IMG/VR virus record: IMGVR_UViG_3300025121_000776
Coordinates: 122,856 to 186,855 of that record
Reading direction: 5' to 3' (one strand)
DNA: 64,000 nt
Source of the DNA: a virus
The first letter of the stretch is position 1; each line of letters begins with the position of its first letter. The position numbers were made by a program, and so were the translations under genes. A model generated the notes under the pieces. It ran no database searches and was not told the origin of the DNA. It was given only the letters and a program-made list of their open reading frames with translations. This document shows positions 4,953-64,000 of this stretch, piece after piece.

Positions 4953-6072
4953 ATGGAAAAAAATAAAGCTAAATTATTTTACGAGCAAAAACAAAAAGAA
5001 CACTTCGAAAAACATGGTGTTTACTTCGATACTAATTCGAAGATGGGAGAAATTATTCAAGAGTTTCATGAACAAGAAATTAAAGAATGTGACACCGTTT
5101 ATGAATTTTTGTACAATAGTTGTATCCACGAAAGTGCTGCAGCAACCATGAGTATTCACCGCACTCAAAAGGGCGCTGAGATGGCCATGGAATTTCACAA
5201 GAGCGAAGCAAAGAAAGAGTGGGATGAATATAATAAACAATGCAAAGAGGCTGGTTTATCCACATTTGAATTTAAATTTGGAACACATGAATGGTGGGGA
5301 GTTCGACCCATAAAAATTTTAGAATAGAAACTTTTTTCATTTTTTCTCGTATAATATAGAAAATATACAACAATATGAAAATTTTAGAATCTTTTAGAAA
5401 TGGCTTTAAAGTTATTCCCCCTATCGCCTTTTTATGGAATGGAATTCTGTTTATTGCATTAGCGGCTTCGGCATTTATCAATACTGAAATAACTTTTACT
5501 GCTTATGCAATAATGTCAATGTTTGCTATTCCATTTATGTTTGAAGTACTGGAAAATAAAAAGTTCGTTCACCTTTGGATGCTTATAACTTTAACATTTT
5601 GGATTGTGTTTATCTCAGTTTCACTTACTGTTCTATTTTTTTTAATAGGTGAAACAGCCTTCTCAAAATTTAATAAAAAATTTAATAAAAAATTCTCCAA
5701 ACAATGAAACTTGTAAAAGAACCAGACAAGAAATTGTTTGAATATGCCTTTAAAAAAGAACGAAAATATACTTTTATTAATTTTAGGGGAAAACGACAAA
5801 CATATCACTTAGGTCATGAAGAATTATTATCAAATGGAAAATGTCCTATTTGCGATGTTCATTTAGTTGTTTGGCATGGAACTATAGATTCTGATATATC
5901 TTGTCCATCTTGTAATAGAAAAATTGAAAAAACAAAAGAATATAAATCTCTAAGAGAAAGTCTTAAAAATTCATTTTTTAATAGAGAACAAGAATTAAAA
6001 AAACTCAAGAAAAATTTAGAACGTGATAAAGCTCTTCTTAAGTTTATTGAAAATAAAGTAAATTCGTTTTAA
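4953..6072 (+). CDS. Three co-transcribed hypothetical proteins (4953-5327; 5375-5707 membrane; 5704-6072 Zn-ribbon)
   Basis: ORF track, tight spacing; last stop TAA forms the TAAC of an attC-like core. Confidence 0.65.
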
Positions 6073-6151
6073 CGATTGCGTGTAAAAACAGTGCGAAAAA
6101 TAGTTGATAAGTTAATTTGAAAACGAACATAAATTTTTAATATTTTACATT

Positions 6152-6496
6152 ATGAAAACACAAATAAAAAAAATTGCAAAATTAGAGGAAGAATATTTTG
6201 AATTGTACGAAAAGAAGTATGGCAAAGTAAAAATTGATAAAACTCAATATGAAAGACTAAATTTAAACGAAGGTGATTGGATATATTCCGATTATTTTAA
6301 AGAAGCCAATAAAGTAAAAAGAATACAGGGTGAATATATTGAGTTTTGCTTTGCAGAAAAGAATGGAATTAAAAGTGGCGTATTGAGTTTTGTTGAAAAC
6401 AAACAAGATACTGAAACACATAGATACGCAACGTTAAAGGAAATTGAAGCGAAATTAATAAAAGAAATTCAAAATATTAAAAATTTTCAACAATGA
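6152..6496 (+). CDS. Hypothetical protein lying inside an attC-like loop
   Basis: ORF track; flanked by the two arms of the 6070-6546 site. Confidence 0.7.
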   Translation: MKTQIKKIAKLEEEYFELYEKKYGKVKIDKTQYERLNLNEGDWIYSDYFKEANKVKRIQGEYIEFCFAEKNGIKSGVLSFVENKQDTETHRYATLKEIEAKLIKEIQNIKNFQQ

Positions 6497-6616
6497 ATTA
6501 TAATCGAAGCACTGAATTAGGCATGTTTTATAGCCAGTGTTATGCAGGCTTTAGCCCTTGCCGTTTTAATGATGCATAACGGGCACAGATAACAACAGTT
6601 TAAAACAAATTTAGAT

Positions 6617-6784
6617 ATGGAAAAAGAAACTAAAAAAATAGCAGAAAACATTGATAATGGCACTGAAAAATTATTGTTATCTGATGTTATCGGTAGTAAT
6701 TGGAACACTACTGATTATGTAAATCAAAAGGTAAAAAATATCATGTGGAATACTGATAGAAAAATTAAGAATTATTACCGATAA
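6617..6784 (+). CDS. Small cassette protein (55 aa) that starts in an attC loop
   Basis: Hand-translated MEKETKK...KLLLSDVIGS...NYYR; stop TAA lies in the core TAAC. Confidence 0.6.
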   Translation: MEKETKKIAENIDNGTEKLLLSDVIGSNWNTTDYVNQKVKNIMWNTDRKIKNYYR

Positions 6785-56234: not shown

Positions 56235-57549
56235 AAGGTTTTAGTTAATGGTTTGTTTTTGTCAGTTGCCTTTACACTAACAGGTAAAGCAAAGATATAA
56301 AATAATTCTGAGAAAGTCAAGTTTTTAGCAAAAATAAAAATCCCACAGCTTTTATTTATTGTGGGGATGAATCATGTTCCAAGGCAGAGCCTTTTGTATT
56401 AAATTCACTTTAGAGTTAGCAGTAATAATTTTATCTTGCCGCCACACCTGAGTTTTTAACAATAGGGTTTTCAACAAAATCTTTTATGTTATCACCCAAA
56501 CACATAAGTTGTACTGCCATTAAATCACCATCAATGTTTTCGTTTGAAATTGCTATGATTTTTTCACACACTTTTTTTAAGTTGTCAAAATTTTCTGTTG
56601 TAAATGTTTTCATTTTATTTATGTTTTTTATATTTACGAGTATCCCACGCTCAAAAAGGATAAATTTACATACTGCTAATAAAGTGTAAAAAACATTAAA
56701 ACGATTTTTTACACCCAACCGTTAAAAATGTTTTCATATTGACCTTTGGCTTTTTTTTAACTAAATAATGCATTTACTCCCAAAAACATTAAACAACATA
56801 AAAATATTAAACAGGCAATTGCCAGCCAGCAGATTATTCCATATAAGCTTGACATTAATTGTTCTATCCAGTCTTCATCAAATGTGTTTAAAACTGAATT
56901 TCCCATGAAGTAAGCTCCTCCAAAAAATACTATAATTGCTAGTGTAGTAAAAAATGTTATCATAATTTTTGGTTTTTGTTTAATTTTAAATCATTTATCA
57001 AATCAGGAAGCCCTTCTTGTGAGATAAAATCTAAACGACTTTTTAGTTGAGCAACCTCTTTTTTTATGTTTATTTCTTTTTCGCAACAAACGCATTTCAT
57101 TGGGATAACCTTAATTGTAGTTGAAGTTGGTTTGCTCCTATGTTTGAAACTTTTGTGAATTTTTTTAGTTATTTTCATCTTCATTTTATTGGTTATACGA
57201 AATTCTCGCCCAAATGTTTTAAATAGTTCAATTTTTGTTCACAAATTCCGTAGCAATTGGTCTTTTTCATGATAAAACTATTTAATTATCAATTGTTTAA
57301 AAACACTTGTTGATATATAGGAGTTATGTGCCATTTTGCTGTCATTCAAGCCCTTTAACAACTCCACATGCACCCGTGCATATGTAATTTCGGGCTTTCA
57401 TTCCTTAAACGCAAAACGTGCCCCTCGCTCAAAAATCCCAACACACCACATAACATGGGCTTATGGCTATATTGTCTGTGTTTCATCTTTAGTTTCATTG
57501 GTTAATAATAAAAAAGAAAAGCCAACCCTCGTCAGCTTTTCAAGCTGTT

Positions 57550-57918
57550 TTATTTTACTTCTGACCATATATTCATGGCTACATAAGGAGTTCCTCTGTA
57601 TAATACAGTTATAAACTCTGATTTATCCCATGTGCTAACACAACTGAAATATTCTAACATATATGGCTCTGATATTATTTCTACTATTTCACCAGTTTTT
57701 CCGCTAAATCCTGCTAAATTTGATTTTTCGCCTGTTAAAAGATTTTTTTGTTGTGAGTTATCGCATAATATAACTTTTTTCCCAATTATACTATTTCTTC
57801 TATCTCCATATTTAGGCACAAAACATTGAGGAAATAATACTTCTAATACTTTTTTAGCTTCCGTAGAAGATTCTGATGCTAAAATTACTTTTTCTCTTAA
57901 AACTTCTAATTTTTCCAT
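57550..57918 (-). CDS. Hypothetical protein nested inside an attC-like loop
   Basis: Start MEKLEV; lies between stem arms at 57457 and 58002. Confidence 0.7.
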   Translation of the reverse strand: MEKLEVLREKVILASESSTEAKKVLEVLFPQCFVPKYGDRRNSIIGKKVILCDNSQQKNLLTGEKSNLAGFSGKTGEIVEIISEPYMLEYFSCVSTWDKSEFITVLYRGTPYVAMNIWSEVK

Positions 57919-58019
57919 TTTTTTAGTTTTTAATTTATTTTTAAAAATCCACCTTATTTTTCTTTTTTTACTCAGTTTTTCAATCAATATTTCGTTAATA
58001 CAGCCATAAGCCCCGTTCG

Positions 58020-59083
58020 TTAGCCACAATTAAAAGAGATTGCAGCTTCCATTCTATTGTATAAGTCTTCGCTAATCACAGGGTCATCCCAAGCACCAGC
58101 AGTAATGCTAAAAATCTCTTTTAACAGTTCGCTGTGCTGGCTAACAACAGATAAACGCAACTTTAATTTTTCGTTTTCTGCTTTTAATTTAGCTATTTCG
58201 TCTTGTAATTCTTCTTCGTATCCAAACATAATTTTGTTATTTAAAAATTAAAACTTCGTTTATCTGCAACCGTTATACACAATTTAATTTTTAGGAAGTT
58301 TGTATTCAACAATCATCCCACCATTTTCAGTGTGTGTTACTTTGGTTTCTATATCAGGATGGTGTGGGCATTGAAGTGGTTCTTCCAATCCACGTTCTTG
58401 TTTTTTGTGCCATCTAATAGATTCTGCTCGTGCATCATCAATTGTTGAATACAAACCGTGTTTAACAAGCGATTTTGCGTAATTTTCTACTTTTTCGTTA
58501 TTCATATATTTTGTGTTTTAAATTAAAAATTAAACTGTGTATAACAGCAAATATAAGAAATAAATTTTAAATTATCTAATTTTTTATAGGTAAAATTTAC
58601 TTCTCATATTTGCAAACGTTATAAGTAATAAAACAAAAATTATGATTGTTTATTTTCTTCTCTTTTCAATTCATCAGAAATCATAGTATTGATACATTCA
58701 CCAATCCATTTAATATTATCATCACCTATTTGCACTCTGTTTTTCAAATCATTTAAGATTTCTTCTTTTCTTTTTTCTAATTCTTGTTTTGTTGTTTTCA
58801 TAATTTCATTTATTTAATTTGTATAATTTTTGTTTTACATACTTATAACAACAAATAAAACACATTAAAACGATGTTTTATTTGCAGCCGTTAGGCATAA
58901 TAAAAATTATTGCCCACGCACAATTTTACGCTCATCTATTTCAGCAAAATCAGTTTCCGTATAACATGACCTGCCAATAAACCATTTTTTGTTTTCATAT
59001 TCTGCAACTGTCCATTTTCCTGGTTCTTTTGCCCATGTTATTGCAAATGTTTTTACCCAATAAAATCCGTTTTTCCTTTTCAT
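58020..59083 (-). CDS. Four small cassette genes (58020-58229, 58284-58505, 58640-58801, 58907-59083)
   Basis: One ORF per cassette; the last two were hand-translated (53 and 58 aa). Confidence 0.7.
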
Positions 59084-59339
59084 AAAAATAATTTTTACAG
59101 ATGCCTAACATGCAATATAAAACATACCTGTCGTGCATCTTTGATTAATACTATGTTTATTAATATCGTCATTCTAATTTAGTTCTGTGTTGGCACGTTT
59201 CATACACGCAACCGTTATAACCAATACCACATACCGAAAGCAATCACCATAATTACAATGATTACAATGATACATATCGCCAACCGTTAGCTGCAATTTA
59301 ATTTTAATTTGCCACCGCTCTTTGAATTTTTCAAACCCA

Positions 59340-59753
59340 TTAGAATTTTTTACCTCCATATTTAAATCCTCTTGTTTCATTGTATGCCATTTTTAATTTA
59401 ATATGGTTTTCAATATCAATATTTAATTTACCACATAAATCAAGCAATCTAATTATTGAATCAGCGATTTCATCTTCAAAAGAGTCTTTTATTTTTTCTT
59501 CGAATAACAATTTAAATTTAATATTATCTTTTTCACAACAAGGTATATCAGAATTGACATAATATAAAGTTTCATTTAAAACAGGTGTCAAATCAGCATA
59601 CTTATCTTTCCTAAATGCCTCAAATGCCTCTGATATTTCAGAATGAATTAACGCAATCCTTAAAGGTACATCATTATTGTCAAATCCAGCACTTACAACA
59701 AATTTATTAAATTGTTTACTTAATAAATTCAAACCTTTTACATTGTATTCCAT
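59340..59753 (-). CDS. MazG-like nucleotide pyrophosphohydrolase
   Basis: ALIHSEISEAFEAFRK, DEIADSIIRLLD, KMAYNETR...YGGKKF. Confidence 0.8.
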   Translation of the reverse strand: MEYNVKGLNLLSKQFNKFVVSAGFDNNDVPLRIALIHSEISEAFEAFRKDKYADLTPVLNETLYYVNSDIPCCEKDNIKFKLLFEEKIKDSFEDEIADSIIRLLDLCGKLNIDIENHIKLKMAYNETRGFKYGGKKF

Positions 59754-59764
59754 TTTTTATATTG

Positions 59765-62628
59765 TTAAATTAATACTAAAAATCCACCTAAATTAAACAG
59801 ACCCCACGCACAACCCAACGCACTAATCACACCACAAACCACAGCAATACTACCAAATAATTTATATCGGTTTATCGTTTTATTATCTTTACAAACAACT
59901 CCACACACACGCATTTCTGGTGGTCTAATTATCACTTTACTTTTATCAATTATTGGTTCAATCATATTTATAACATCGTGTATATTCAAGTTTGCATCAG
60001 CATTTGTGCATAATTCAAAGTTCCCATAAGCAAACCTGAAATATGCAAGCAACTGTTATTAAACAATTATTTTGAAAGTTCTTTTATATTTATTGAATTC
60101 AGGTTCATTGCCAAATTTTTCTTCCATTAAATTATTCAATCTAACTGGATTCACGTCATACGTAATTGGTATTAAATTCCATAATTTAGAACATCGTTCT
60201 CTTGTCTGTGTCAATGTTAGTTTATTCTCTTCTAATTCTTTAATGAGAATTGTTTGTTCAATTTCGTATTTTTCTAAATTTGTTTCTGTTTTCATATTTG
60301 TACTTTTTTAACTAAACCATAATAACAAATATATAACAAAAAAATTGAAATAAAAAAATTTCATAATATATTTGTAACCGTTAGCAATCAGTTATTGGTT
60401 TTGCTTTTATATTACAGGTTTCATCTAAACAGTGCATTCCCTTAAAATTACAAGAGTCTTGCACTCTGTAAGGACACCCAGCAACCGACACCCCAACGCT
60501 TGGAATTGCTATCGCTACAGGTATAGCAAATAAATTTACTAAGTCCCATCGTAATTTTCCGCATATTTCCCCTGTTAATTTTATGTAATCAAGATTGTCG
60601 TTATCAATTTTTACATCACTTAATAATAAGTGTACTTCTTGTTCTGTCATATTTATCAATTTATTAGTTATTAATCCGTAAAATTCTGCGGCTCGTTAGC
60701 GTTCAGTTTGCTTGAAGTCGCTAATATTATCACCATGTCCACATGTACAGCAAATAACCTGTATATCTTTCGTTTTACACTTAGGGCAAACCACAACGCT
60801 AACATCGTGTATAGGTAATAATTTTAAAAAAAGTTCTTCCAATTCAGTAGCAACGCTCGGCGCATCTGCTGCATCGCATTCAACGTCTTTTCTTGGTATC
60901 TTACTTACCACTTTATATATTTGTTCCCAAACCTCGCTTCTTTGCATTTTGTTACTTTGTTCCATTTTATTTAGTTTATCTGTTAATACTTTTTAAAATT
61001 ACATACTATACACAAGTCCATTATATGTAATTTAATTATCCTCCGATTTAACTCTACTACTTATTCCAATATTGTGTCCCGCAATTGGATTCCAACCTAT
61101 TTTAGAATATGAGCCATCGTCTATTTCAACAGTTGCCAAGCCTGTTTCATTATCATATTCTATTACTTTACCTACTACTGTTTCTTTTACATTCACATTT
61201 TTACCAACTAAATTTAGCAAATTCTTTTCTAATTGTACTGTCATTTTCATATTCTAAATTTTAAGGTTTTTTATTTCAAATTAATTTGTTTGGTCTTTTT
61301 AATGTAATTTCATTAATAATATTTTTATCAGTTACTTCAATTAACTTATCAAATTCAACATAATCAAAATATGTTGAACCTTTTTCGTGTTCGCAGAAAA
61401 AACAACCGCTACTTGTCCCAAATGTATTCCACTCGTGATAATAATCACCATCACACTTTACAACTAATTTATTCTCAAATTTTCCTATTATTTCCATATC
61501 AATATTTTTTAGTTTATAATTATTTTATACAAAGATACTAATTTAATTCGATATAATCAATATTCACAACGCTATTTTTAAAAACTTTTTGCTAGTGTTC
61601 CAATTAAGCACTTGTGTAAGCAATAGTTGTATTTGCAACCGTTATGTTTAATTAGATTATTGTTTTGAATTTTTTATTTCTAAACCGTTTTCTTTAAGAA
61701 TTTTTATAACTTCATACCAATCATATTCCATTGGTGGTGTAAAATTACAATCTATACTTAATTTTCCCACATCAGACATTTTCCCACTTTTTTGTCTTGG
61801 TTCGCAAACAAAAATTTCACCTTCATAATAAAGTTTCAAGTGTGGAAAAATTCTTTCCAAACGTTCTACTAAAATTCTTAATTCACTATCCATATATTTT
61901 TATTTTTATTTGTAGAACAATAATTTAACTAAAACGACAATATATTTGCAACCGTTAGTACTCATTTAAAGAGCGGATGTACTCGTCTAATTTCTTTTCC
62001 TCTTCAATGTGCTTAGGTATTGCCAACGAAGCACATTTTCCACAGATATAGTAATCTACTTCACAACCACACTCATCATTTGTATATCCTGCCGCATAAC
62101 TACCTTGCTGCGGGTTATCACAACAGTCACAAGTATCATCAAATTCGCACCTCACATAATATTTCTCAATTTCTTCCTGAGTAAATAAAACGGGTGCTAA
62201 CACAGTATTAGCATTATTGCTTGTGGGTTTTTGTACTTTATTTTTCATATTAAAATTTGTGTTAAGTTAAACTTTTCTGTTTCAAATTAAAGGCAACAAA
62301 TGCCAATACTTCACCGTTATATTTAATTTTAAGAATGTTTTGGTTTTTCATCAGTTAAATACTGAAATTTTTCATTTCCAAATCTATCTTTAATCATAAC
62401 TTTTCCATCAACATCTATCTCGCCAAAGGTTAATTTATTGTTGTAATAAGTTGATGTATATATTTTTTTATCTTCATCATTTCCGTGACGACATTCTACA
62501 CGACTTGTCCCATCATCCCACAATAAAATTCCAATGGTATATGAACAATTTGGAAATCGTTGTAGAATATCATTTTTAACTAAGTCTATTTGTTTCTGTA
62601 TTTTTTTCATTTGTACTGTCATTTTCAT
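59765..62628 (-). CDS. Small cassette genes (59765-, 60059-60295, 60381-60659, 60696-60965, 61032-61250, 61276-61497, 61657-61893, 61955-62248, 62329-62628)
   Basis: ORF track; boundaries coincide with attC-like cores. Confidence 0.7.
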
Positions 62629-62703
62629 ATTCTAAATTTTAAGGTTTTGTTTCAAATTAATTTCTTTTAACGTAATTAAATGTGTTCGTTGGGTGCAATT
62701 GAA

Positions 62704-63495: not shown

Positions 63496-64000
63496 GAAAT
63501 TCTCACAAATACTTGATTAATTAAAAAATTATAAATATCTTTGCGCATTAAATACATAAAATTATGGTTCTGAGTAAAAAACACGGTTTAAATATTTCTG
63601 ATGATGCTAAATTATTAAAACTTGCATCTGAATCTTTTAGTGATGGTGATTTTATATGTCCAGAGTGTGGAGAAACGATATTTGAATATATATCTGACAC
63701 ACATGTTGAATGTGATACGTGTGGGCATGTGTTATTAAATACGTATAAAAATTTTTAAATTAATTGGCTTCGCCTTTGGCCTTTTTTATAGAAAGTATTT
63801 AATTTTTATTAGGTTTCCAATTTTTTATAATATTTGTAAAATATTTACTATCTTCACTATTAACAAAATTATACATTCCATTATTTGTCATTAAACCATC
63901 TTCTACAAGTTCATTTGCTAAATCTATTTTTTTAAGATGTTCTTTTTTTGTCAATCCTTCGTGACGTGATTTGGCGCACATTTCTGCAAATTTTTCTATT

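What the first reader, a model, noticed from the sequence alone, without database searches (positions are those of the whole stretch)
57447..58026. Whole genes nested inside the loop of an attC-like hairpin
Seen: arms GGGCTTATGGCT(57457) and AGCCATAAGCCC(58002) form a perfect 12-bp inverted repeat with correct core spacing, but lie about 530 bp apart and enclose the complete 57550-57918 ORF. The same occurs at 6070-6546 around ORF 6152-6496. Other loops hold the start codon and N-terminal codons (58138-58275, 60795-61027, 62193-62322), so the stem is translated as LSVVS, IHDVS, NTVLAPV or LLSDVIG. Established: classical attC sites are about 55-141 bp with non-coding loops. Inference: the variable loop serves as cargo and translation-start space, which is an unusual cassette architecture.
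Basis: partly seen in the sequence, partly recalled or inferred. Interest (0 to 1): 0.8.

Follow-up and report, generated by a model that had tools for sequence, protein, structure and literature searches.

The report
Genes nested inside phage attC-like hairpins
In a huge phage genome, small genes are separated by hairpin-forming sites that look like integron recombination sites. In some of these sites a whole gene, or the start of one, lies inside the hairpin loop, and the same layout recurs in over a hundred related phage contigs, so it is real and appears undescribed.

Summary
The 12-bp inverted repeat is real (57457-57468 / 58002-58013). On the gene-sense (minus) strand it extends to 17 bp with one G.T. 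Its geometry matches the neighbouring short hairpins: TAAC, 5-nt spacer, stem ... stem, 2-nt spacer, GTTA. It encloses a complete 122-codon orphan gene with its own terminator.

The site belongs to a hairpin family found in over 100 mostly huge-phage contigs (about 480 sites).
- The +3 spacer asymmetry is specific to the family.
- The flank after each GTTA pairs with the flank before the next TAAC, as in integron cassettes.
- Near-identical gene bodies sit between different hairpins, with breaks exactly at the cores.
- Stem mismatches are G.T on the sense strand by 8-18 to 1.
- Long sites holding whole ORFs (51-220 aa) occur 10 times, against 0-1 for control geometries.
- Two thirds of the 96-140-nt sites hold a start codon that reads through the 3' arm, with GTT as valine.

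The second cited example (6070-6546) is a decayed relative. No tyrosine, serine or HUH recombinase is consistently phage-encoded. The sites also depart from canonical attC: no single extrahelical bases, both cores exchange, and the coding strand is the one that folds.

Verdict: a real, new variant of attC-like cassette sites. Recombination itself is inferred, not shown.

The parts
57451..58022 (-). Long attC-like site (572 nt): TAAC core, 5-nt spacer, 17-nt arm, 523-nt loop, 17-nt arm, 2-nt spacer, GTTA core (read on the minus strand)
   Evidence: the arms pair in the ssDNA MFE and centroid folds
57997..58013 (-). 5' arm of the long site (sense strand). It is followed upstream by the spacer 58014-58018 and the core TAAC 58019-58022, which also supplies the stop codon of ORF 58020-58229
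57457..57473 (-). 3' arm of the long site; spacer 57455-57456; core GTTA 57451-57454
   Evidence: the single mismatch is G.T on the minus strand
57550..57918 (-). Complete 122-aa ORF nested in the loop; an orphan
   Evidence: the only database match is itself; no Pfam or PHROG family; the atlas search is uninformative
57516..57541 (-). Intrinsic-terminator-like hairpin plus T-run directly after the nested ORF. It lies inside the loop, upstream of the 3' arm
   Evidence: the only such site on the minus strand in 56300-62700
58142..58275 (-). 134-nt site whose loop holds the start codon (58229) of ORF 58020-58229. Its 3' arm and GTTA core are translated as ..LSVVS..
   Evidence: (I8)
58020..58229 (-). 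69-aa ORF that starts in the loop of site 58142-58275 and ends in the TAAC core of the long site
58542..58621 (-). 80-nt site with a non-coding loop
   Evidence: (I13); has a homologue in the huge phage LR756500.1
58846..58893 (-). Site of the 48-nt class
58272..58293 (.). One half of a 22-nt inverted repeat (partner 58524-58545) that brackets ORF 58284-58505. It consists of the GTTA core of one site plus its flank, pairing with the flank plus TAAC core of the next site (cassette-type signature)
   Evidence: I9; shown to be general
60800..61023 (-). 224-nt site with a variant 5' core (TAAT) and 24-nt arms (60807-60830 / 60990-61013). Its loop holds the start (60965) of ORF 60696-60965; the stem is translated as ..IHDVS..
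   Evidence: (I16)
62198..62319 (-). 122-nt site; its loop holds the start (62248) of ORF 61955-62248; translated as ..NTVLAPV..
60320..60383 (-). Short site with a 10-bp stem and a variant 3' core (ATTA)
61530..61644 (-). Half-site: TAAC core, spacer, 5' arm and subterminal motif homologous to the long site of L156. No 3' arm was found
56678..56724 (-). Relative of the 48-nt class with a 10-bp stem and a decayed 3' core
   Evidence: (D3)
6577..6689 (+). 113-nt site on the plus strand (the gene strand here). Its loop holds the start codon 6617; translated as ..LLSDVIG..
6070..6542 (+). Decayed long site around ORF 6152-6496: core TAAC at 6070, and a 5' arm and subterminal motif homologous to the long family, but only a 6-bp residual pairing with the 3' side

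Best explanation
Site 57451-58022 is a genuine member of a family of folded-hairpin, attC-like sites. These sites delimit exchangeable gene modules in a clade of huge phages; this phage is about 540 kb and comes from groundwater.

**Anatomy.** Each site reads, on the gene-sense strand, TAAC, a spacer of k+3 nt that starts with G, a stem of variable sequence, a loop, the return stem, a spacer of k nt, then GTTA.

**Proposed mechanism (inferred).**
- When the sense strand is single-stranded, the arms pair, and the AAC/GTT cores pair with their flanks.
- A structure-specific recombinase then exchanges strands at the cores. It could be a host integron-type integrase or an unidentified phage enzyme.
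- Because only the cores, spacers and stem are constrained, the loop is free sequence.

**How the family uses the loop.**
- Often it holds the start codon and a 20-35-residue N-terminal leader that reads in frame through the 3' arm and GTT (Val).
- In about a dozen cases, including this one, it holds a whole self-contained gene.
- Such cargo is physically locked to its site and would move with it.

**Shown versus inferred.** Shown here: the geometry, the recurrence, the cassette-type flank signature, the breakpoints at the cores, and the strand bias of wobble pairs. Inferred: that an enzyme acts on the fold, which enzyme it is, and that loops of 0.25-0.9 kb still allow the reaction.
For: **Family-specific geometry.** 218 + 164 sites have a spacer asymmetry of exactly 3, against 0-9 for asymmetries of 0, 1, 2 and 5 in either direction, and 40 for asymmetry 4, in 2.0 Mb of viral loci.

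**Cassette signature.** The 6 nt after GTTA match the complement of the 6 nt before the next TAAC at a mean of 4.9 of 6, and 77% score at least 5 of 6. The same comparison with a site's own, previous or random flanks gives 2.3. These flank stems run 5-22 nt.

**Breakpoints at the cores.** Gene bodies of 91-100% identity lie between different hairpins. Homology ends within the 4-5 shared core letters.

**Selection for pairing on the sense strand.**
- Stem mismatches are G.T 430 times against A.C 54 times.
- In the flank stems the counts are 180 against 10.
- Compensatory double changes are seen, for example between L243 and L348.
- AAC is followed by G in 96% of sites, as at the cleaved R' box of attC bottom strands (PMC2727003).

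**Long sites.**
- 10 have the right geometry against 0-1 for each control geometry.
- Each of 10 of the 12 unique long sites holds a complete ORF.
- L150, L156 and L223 share arms but carry unrelated cargo, with homology ending at the cores.
- In the window site the distal arms pair in the MFE and centroid folds. The nested gene has its own terminator before the 3' arm, so the arms are unlikely to act within that gene's own transcript.

**Start in loop.** 92 of 138 sites of 96-140 nt, with GTT in frame in 77 of 97 frames.

**Precedent.** attC clusters without an integrase occur in phages, and five of six tested sites were recombined by IntI1 (PMC9892861).
Against: - No recombinase of a known hairpin- or site-specific type is consistently encoded. 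PF00589 is absent from this record, from LR756500.1 and from 3 of 4 near-complete relatives. PF00239 occurs in only one relative, and PF01797 in none.
- The extra bases lie on the arm next to AAC-G, not on the opposite arm as in attC (PMC2727003).
- Both cores act as exchange points, not one.
- The folded strand is the coding strand, so an RNA role would explain the wobble bias equally well.
- Folding across 0.25-0.9 kb is expected to be inefficient. Large terminal structures lower the chance of a recombinogenic fold (PMC5371416).
- Two relatives in this same window have lost their arms: 6070-6546 and 61530-61644. Long sites may therefore decay.
- No excised circle or population variant was seen. 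The three assemblies found are essentially identical (99.96-100%), and read-level data could not be obtained.
Confidence: 0.6

Rival explanations
1. The hairpins and the flank stems are RNA structures in polycistronic sense transcripts. They would serve as processing, stability or translation-control elements that bracket each ORF or its start. Module exchange at the cores would then be a by-product of recombination at the only conserved letters.
For: - The strand that tolerates wobble pairs is the coding strand (430:54 and 180:10).
- Bodies code on that strand 228 to 19.
- Start codons sit in loops, and coding sequence forms the 3' arm, as expected for translational control.
- The sense strand of site 58136-58280 folds better as RNA than its complement (-26.6 against -20.4 kcal/mol).
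Against: - Exchange between different hairpin classes happens within a shared stretch of at most 5 nt, in bodies that are 100% identical. This is not expected from homologous recombination.
- In the long site a terminator lies between the nested ORF and the 3' arm. The arms would therefore share a transcript only by read-through.
- The AAC-G and GTT cores, and the pairing of a flank with the next site's flank, match DNA cassette sites (PMC2727003).
Confidence: 0.2
2. The long site is a dead relic. An ordinary short hairpin site had a gene inserted into its loop by illegitimate recombination, and the arms are complementary only because they have not yet decayed.
For: - Decayed relatives lie in the same window: 6070-6546 keeps only 6 bp of pairing, and 61530-61644 has no 3' arm.
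- Long loops should fold poorly (PMC5371416).
Against: - Long sites are 10-fold enriched over control geometries.
- L150, L156 and L223 keep 15-17 of 16-18 arm pairs around unrelated cargo.
- No short version of those arms was found in 356 loci.
- The only mismatch in each of these stems is G.T on the sense strand.
- The window site's flanks still pair with its neighbours' flanks at 4 of 6 plus the core.
Confidence: 0.13
3. PeSL-type mobile regulatory cassettes, as in T4-type phages. Conserved promoter-plus-terminator hairpins would be shuffled by homologous recombination between copies.
For: - The phage has T4-like modules: baseplate wedge, SbcC-like nuclease and RNA ligase.
- Small orphan genes are separated by repeated hairpins.
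- PeSLs are known to mediate modular shuffling and mini-circles (PMC2839356, PMC4122927).
Against: - Sigma-70-type promoters are not enriched (31 found against 38.8 expected), and none of the sites is followed by a T-run terminator.
- The stems vary in sequence while the geometry is fixed.
- Breakpoints lie in a shared stretch of at most 5 nt.
- The pairing of each flank with the next site's flank has no counterpart in PeSLs.
Confidence: 0.05
4. Chance inverted repeat in A+T-rich DNA.
For: Perfect 12-mer inverted pairs within 600 nt are common here (24 expected in shuffles).
Against: - A pair with at least 6 G/C is expected 0.15 times.
- The pairing extends to 17 bp with the family's cores and 5/2 spacers.
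- Control geometries give no pair of at least 13 matches in 102 arrays.
Confidence: 0.02

Closest known systems
Integron attC sites, and clusters of attC sites lacking an integrase (CALIN), including those reported in phage genomes (Qi et al. 2023, PMC9892861; Bouvier et al. 2009, PMC2727003)
   Same: - Inverted AAC...GTT cores at the boundaries.
- G after the AAC.
- An imperfect palindrome of conserved structure but variable sequence, with an unpaired spacer and a variable terminal loop.
- Short classes of 48-138 nt.
- The sequence beyond GTT pairs with the next site's flank.
- Arrays of small orphan genes.
- No integrase nearby, as in a CALIN.
   Different: - A 3-4-nt asymmetry in the spacer replaces single extrahelical bases, and it lies on the arm that carries AAC-G.
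- Both cores are exchange points.
- The strand selected for folding is the coding strand.
- Loops carry start codons in frame, or whole genes (229-898 nt against 56-141 nt for attC).
- The family is spread over more than 100 viral contigs. It was not found in 401 sampled Bacteroidia genomes.
PeSL (promoter-early stem-loop) mobile regulatory cassettes of T4-type phages (PMC2839356, PMC4122927)
   Same: Repeated hairpin elements between small non-essential genes in plastic regions of large myovirus genomes. They are associated with modular gene shuffling.
   Different: - PeSLs are conserved in sequence and combine a sigma-70 promoter with a terminator. They recombine by homology.
- The sites here have variable stems, fixed core geometry, no promoter or terminator signal, and breakpoints within a few letters.
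Single-strand hairpin elements handled by HUH enzymes (IS200/IS605 ends, REP/RAYT); comparison from general knowledge
   Same: A tetranucleotide next to a structure-specific hairpin on one preferred strand, with the single-stranded form implied.
   Different: - No Y1 HUH transposase in five phage records.
- The cores here are inverted copies that pair with each other.
- The elements alternate with gene bodies rather than forming the ends of one element.

Membership tests
Integron attC site (CALIN if no intI) | Conserved AAC and GTT triplets as inverted cores at the two boundaries | tested here: met
   All catalogued sites were selected on TAAC/GTTA. The enrichment over control geometries shows that the cores go with the fold.
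Integron attC site (CALIN if no intI) | Imperfect palindrome with a paired core box, an unpaired central spacer, a stem and a variable terminal structure; structure conserved, sequence not | tested here: met
   Stems differ in sequence while the spacing is fixed. A compensatory change is seen.
Integron attC site (CALIN if no intI) | Two or three single extrahelical bases on the R''-L'' arm, including a conserved G in L'' (PMC2727003) | tested here: not met
   The asymmetry is a block of 3 (sometimes 4) nt in the spacer directly after AAC-G. That places it on the arm that would be R'-L' if the sense strand is the folded strand.
Integron attC site (CALIN if no intI) | [quoted passage not shown] | tested here: met
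   G at +1 in 96% of 394 unique sites on the sense strand.
Integron attC site (CALIN if no intI) | Length about 56-141 bp (PMC5371416) | tested here: not met
   The site in question is 572 nt, and other long sites are 229-898 nt. The short classes (48-138 nt) do fit.
Integron attC site (CALIN if no intI) | Chimeric sites: the sequence beyond the crossover belongs to the next cassette and pairs with that cassette's own inverse core | tested here: met
   Match to the next site's flank is 4.9 of 6, against 2.3 of 6 for the site's own, previous or random flanks, over 298 pairs.
Integron attC site (CALIN if no intI) | A single crossover point per site, so that each ORF stays linked to one attC | tested here: not met
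   The same body is found with a different downstream hairpin and, in other pairs, with a different upstream hairpin.
Integron attC site (CALIN if no intI) | The folded, recombined strand is the non-coding strand, and the ORF lies upstream of its attC | tested here: not met
   The wobble bias marks the coding strand. Bodies code on it 228 to 19. ORFs start in or just after sites.
Integron attC site (CALIN if no intI) | Recombined by an integron integrase | not testable with these tools
   There is no intI in the phage records. The host is unknown.
PeSL regulatory cassette | Sigma-70-like early promoter joined to a stem-loop terminator | tested here: not met
   Promoter-like sites number 31 against 38.8 expected. 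No site has a T-run terminator.
PeSL regulatory cassette | Exchange by homologous recombination between near-identical copies | tested here: inconclusive
   Many exchanges join different hairpin classes that share at most 5 nt. The highly conserved 48-nt class could also recombine by homology.
HUH (Y1) hairpin elements | A cognate Y1 transposase or RAYT in the genome | tested here: not met
   PF01797 is absent from five phage records.

The most novel reading that the evidence does not exclude
A clade of huge phages runs its own integrase-independent cassette system. Sense-strand hairpin sites with mirrored asymmetry would be cut at both AAC/GTT cores by an unidentified phage enzyme. This would shuffle gene bodies, swap N-terminal leader peptides in frame at a Val codon rebuilt across the crossover, and carry whole genes inside the site's loop.
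Probability: 0.25. Interest if true: 0.85.

Novelty: new variant of a known kind. Interest (0 to 1): 0.68.

Why it matters
Integron-type sites are thought of as short non-coding hairpins that follow a gene.

In this family the loop is routinely coding, and it can hold a whole gene. This would mean:
- The structural rules for such sites are looser than assumed.
- Current tools would miss these cassettes.
- Huge phages have a dedicated way to exchange small accessory genes and perhaps protein N-termini.

The family also offers a natural series of loop lengths (11 nt to 0.9 kb) on one site design. That series could be used to test how far apart the arms of a folded recombination site can be.

Tried and rejected
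- **15-mer scan of bacterial genomes.** It returned mostly chance hits. Only three short loci carried arrays: L053, plus two contigs (L071, L115) of one MAG labelled Methanolobus. These contigs are probably phage DNA in the bin.
- **Relaxed site scan of the window** (variant cores, wobble scoring). It gave mainly noise and was dropped.
It did not fold as proposed, either as DNA or as RNA.
- **Nested ORF.** Its only database match is itself. The other assemblies of this phage are essentially identical, so they show no variation.
- **Function of cassette ORFs.** Pfam, PHROGs and the atlas gave nothing for the cassette ORFs tested, except a MazG-like pyrophosphatase at 59340-59753.
- **Orientation.** I first took the downstream hairpin as the ORF's own attC, the canonical orientation. 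The breakpoints and the wobble bias do not fit that reading.
Full report
**Setting.** The window is the last 64 kb of a 186,855-bp IMG/VR virus record of about 30% G+C. The same phage occurs as a 540,462-bp contig in a groundwater metagenome and in two shorter assemblies. All are essentially identical over the region (99.96-100%). Large ORFs elsewhere in the record match the baseplate wedge, an SbcC-like nuclease, a helicase and an RNA ligase. From about 50.7 kb to the end of the window the genes lie on the minus strand.

**The observation.**
- Read on the minus strand, the site is TAAC (58022-58019), a 5-nt spacer, a 17-nt arm, a 523-nt loop, the return arm with one G.T pair, a 2-nt spacer, and GTTA (57454-57451).
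- The short hairpins next to it have the same plan: 58142-58275 and 62198-62319 with the same 5/2 spacers, 58542-58621 and 58846-58893 with 4/1.
- The loop contains a 122-codon ORF (57550-57918), immediately followed by the only intrinsic-terminator-like hairpin on that strand in 6.4 kb (57541-57516).
- As single-stranded DNA, the distal arms pair in both the minimum-energy and the centroid structure.
- A plain 12-mer inverted pair within 600 nt is not rare in this composition (24 expected). A G+C-rich one is rare: 0.15 expected, 1 found.

The three start-in-loop sites and a fourth on the plus strand at 6577-6689 are as described, and the four peptides are correct. The second long example, 6070-6546, keeps only a 6-bp pairing, although its 5' part is homologous to long sites elsewhere.

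**A large family.**
Many of the contigs are 100-465 kb.
- The huge phage LR756500.1 carries homologous sites.
- In 2.0 Mb of these loci, hairpins closed by TAAC and GTTA have a 5' spacer exactly 3 nt longer than the 3' spacer in 218 + 164 cases. Asymmetries of 0, 1, 2 and 5 in either direction give 0-9 cases, and an asymmetry of 4 gives 40.
- I catalogued 482 sites in 102 arrays, with size classes near 48, 79, 88 and 115-127 nt.
- AAC is followed by G in 96% of sites, and GTTA is preceded by T in 98%.
- The gene bodies between sites code on the same strand in 228 of 247 cases.
- The 29-mer was not found, allowing up to 3 mismatches, in 401 sampled Bacteroidia genomes.

**Evidence for exchange at the cores.**
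- The six bases after GTTA of one site are complementary to the six before TAAC of the next site: mean 4.9 of 6, with 77% at 5 or more. They are not complementary to the site's own or the previous flank (2.3, the same as random). These flank stems extend 5-22 nt. In the window the clearest case is 58272-58293 with 58524-58545.
- This is the pattern that integron cassettes show, because the sequence beyond the crossover belongs to the next cassette (PMC2727003).
- Eleven pairs of bodies at 91-100% identity lie in different contexts. The downstream hairpin is of another class in six pairs. The upstream hairpin is of another class in two pairs and clearly diverged in others. Homology stops within the shared four or five core letters. 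So both cores behave as exchange points, unlike the single point of attC.

**Which strand folds.**
- Mismatches inside stems are G.T on the sense strand 430 times and A.C 54 times. In the flank stems the counts are 180 and 10.
- Base composition would give about 1.4 to 1, so pairing is selected on the sense strand.
- The G after AAC and the purine excess match the bottom strand of attC (PMC2727003, PMC5371416).
- The extra spacer bases, however, lie on the arm next to AAC-G, opposite to the extrahelical bases of attC.
- The coding strand is the folded one, so an RNA role cannot be excluded.

**Loops as coding space.**
- Of 138 unique sites of 96-140 nt, 92 contain an ATG that opens a frame of at least 40 codons running through the 3' arm and GTTA. 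GTT is a codon in 77 of 97 such frames.
- This gives recurrent leaders that end in motifs such as NLNISDV followed by S, I, M or R.
- L243 and L348 carry the same body (99.5% identical) behind different leaders, joined at ..ISDV|SGS... Their inner stems differ by a compensatory double change.

**Long sites.**
- Twelve unique long sites of 229-1483 nt have arms without a nearby partner and contain no complete short site inside. Ten of them hold a complete ORF of 51-220 aa.
- With the correct asymmetry there are 10 such sites. Each wrong asymmetry gives 0-1, and none of those reaches 13 matches.
- Their ORFs are unrelated to each other.
- L150, L156 and L223 share 16-18-nt arms and subterminal motifs but sit between different flanks and carry different cargo. 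Homology ends at the cores.
- The window's long site shares the subterminal motif but has entirely different arms that are still complementary.

**Enzymes.**
- No integron integrase or other tyrosine recombinase is found in this record, in LR756500.1, or in three of four relatives that are 96-100% complete. The fourth has only partial matches.
- Serine recombinases occur in one relative only, and Y1 HUH transposases in none.
- Sigma-70-type promoters are not enriched, and the sites are not T-run terminators. This argues against the PeSL model of T4-type phages (PMC2839356, PMC4122927).

**Reading.** The finding is real. It is one instance of a general property of a phage-borne, attC-like site family. 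Clusters of attC sites in phages are known, though as small sets of two to four canonical-looking sites (PMC9892861). I found no report of attC sites in jumbo phages. I know of no report of coding loops or of genes inside a site, but I did not search for one. The mechanism is inferred from sequence patterns only: folding of the sense strand and exchange at both cores by a host integrase or an unknown phage enzyme. The main rival is an RNA-level function of the same folds. The internal terminator in the long site speaks against that rival for this site, but it is not excluded for the family.

Noticed in passing
L138:4008-4055 and over 120 IMG/VR contigs: The 48-nt site class has a 29-nt core that is identical letter for letter in more than 120 viral contigs, many of them 100-465 kb. 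That is an unusual degree of conservation for an intergenic hairpin.
   Followed up: partly
L243 and L348; window 58142-58229: Leader peptides encoded in the loops fall into a few families (for example ..ENLNISDV.., MKI.VKITDEAGN.., MIK..I.KLK.LR.Y). They join the body at a Val codon that spans the putative G|TT crossover, so an exchange there would swap N-termini in frame.
   Followed up: partly
L357:1-9447 (beyond the window's end at 64000): The 540-kb contig continues past the end of this record. The run of small genes there includes several GNAT acetyltransferases, a nitroreductase and an APH-family kinase.
   Followed up: no
L071 and L115 (both in genome G006, a MAG labelled Methanolobus): Two short contigs of one archaeal MAG consist almost wholly of these site arrays (6 and 10 sites). 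This is probably phage DNA binned with the MAG, but a host link was not examined.
   Followed up: no
window 6542-6577: The GTTA core at 6539-6542 and the TAAC core at 6577-6580 are separated by only about 34 nt, and their flanks pair over 8 nt. This is a module body with no gene in it.
   Followed up: no
L150 (minus strand) and L223 long sites: The two nested ORFs share about their first 20 residues (85% identical) and their flanking arms. After that they diverge into unrelated proteins of 220 and 181 aa.
   Followed up: partly
window 57920-57990 and 59760-59795; L150, L223: Two motifs recur upstream of nested or loop-started ORFs: TTGATTGAAA(A/C)AC and GGTGGATTTTTA. They may be the cassettes' own expression signals.
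   Followed up: no
window 59340-59753 (minus strand): The only cassette gene with a recognisable family is a MazG-like pyrophosphatase (PHROG 3301, E = 2e-25). Its DNA also resembles that of Cellulophaga phage phi14:2.
   Followed up: no
G004:C1:13645-14702: A 465-kb relative has two partial Phage_integrase matches about 800 nt apart in separate frames. This could be a split or decayed tyrosine recombinase.
   Followed up: no
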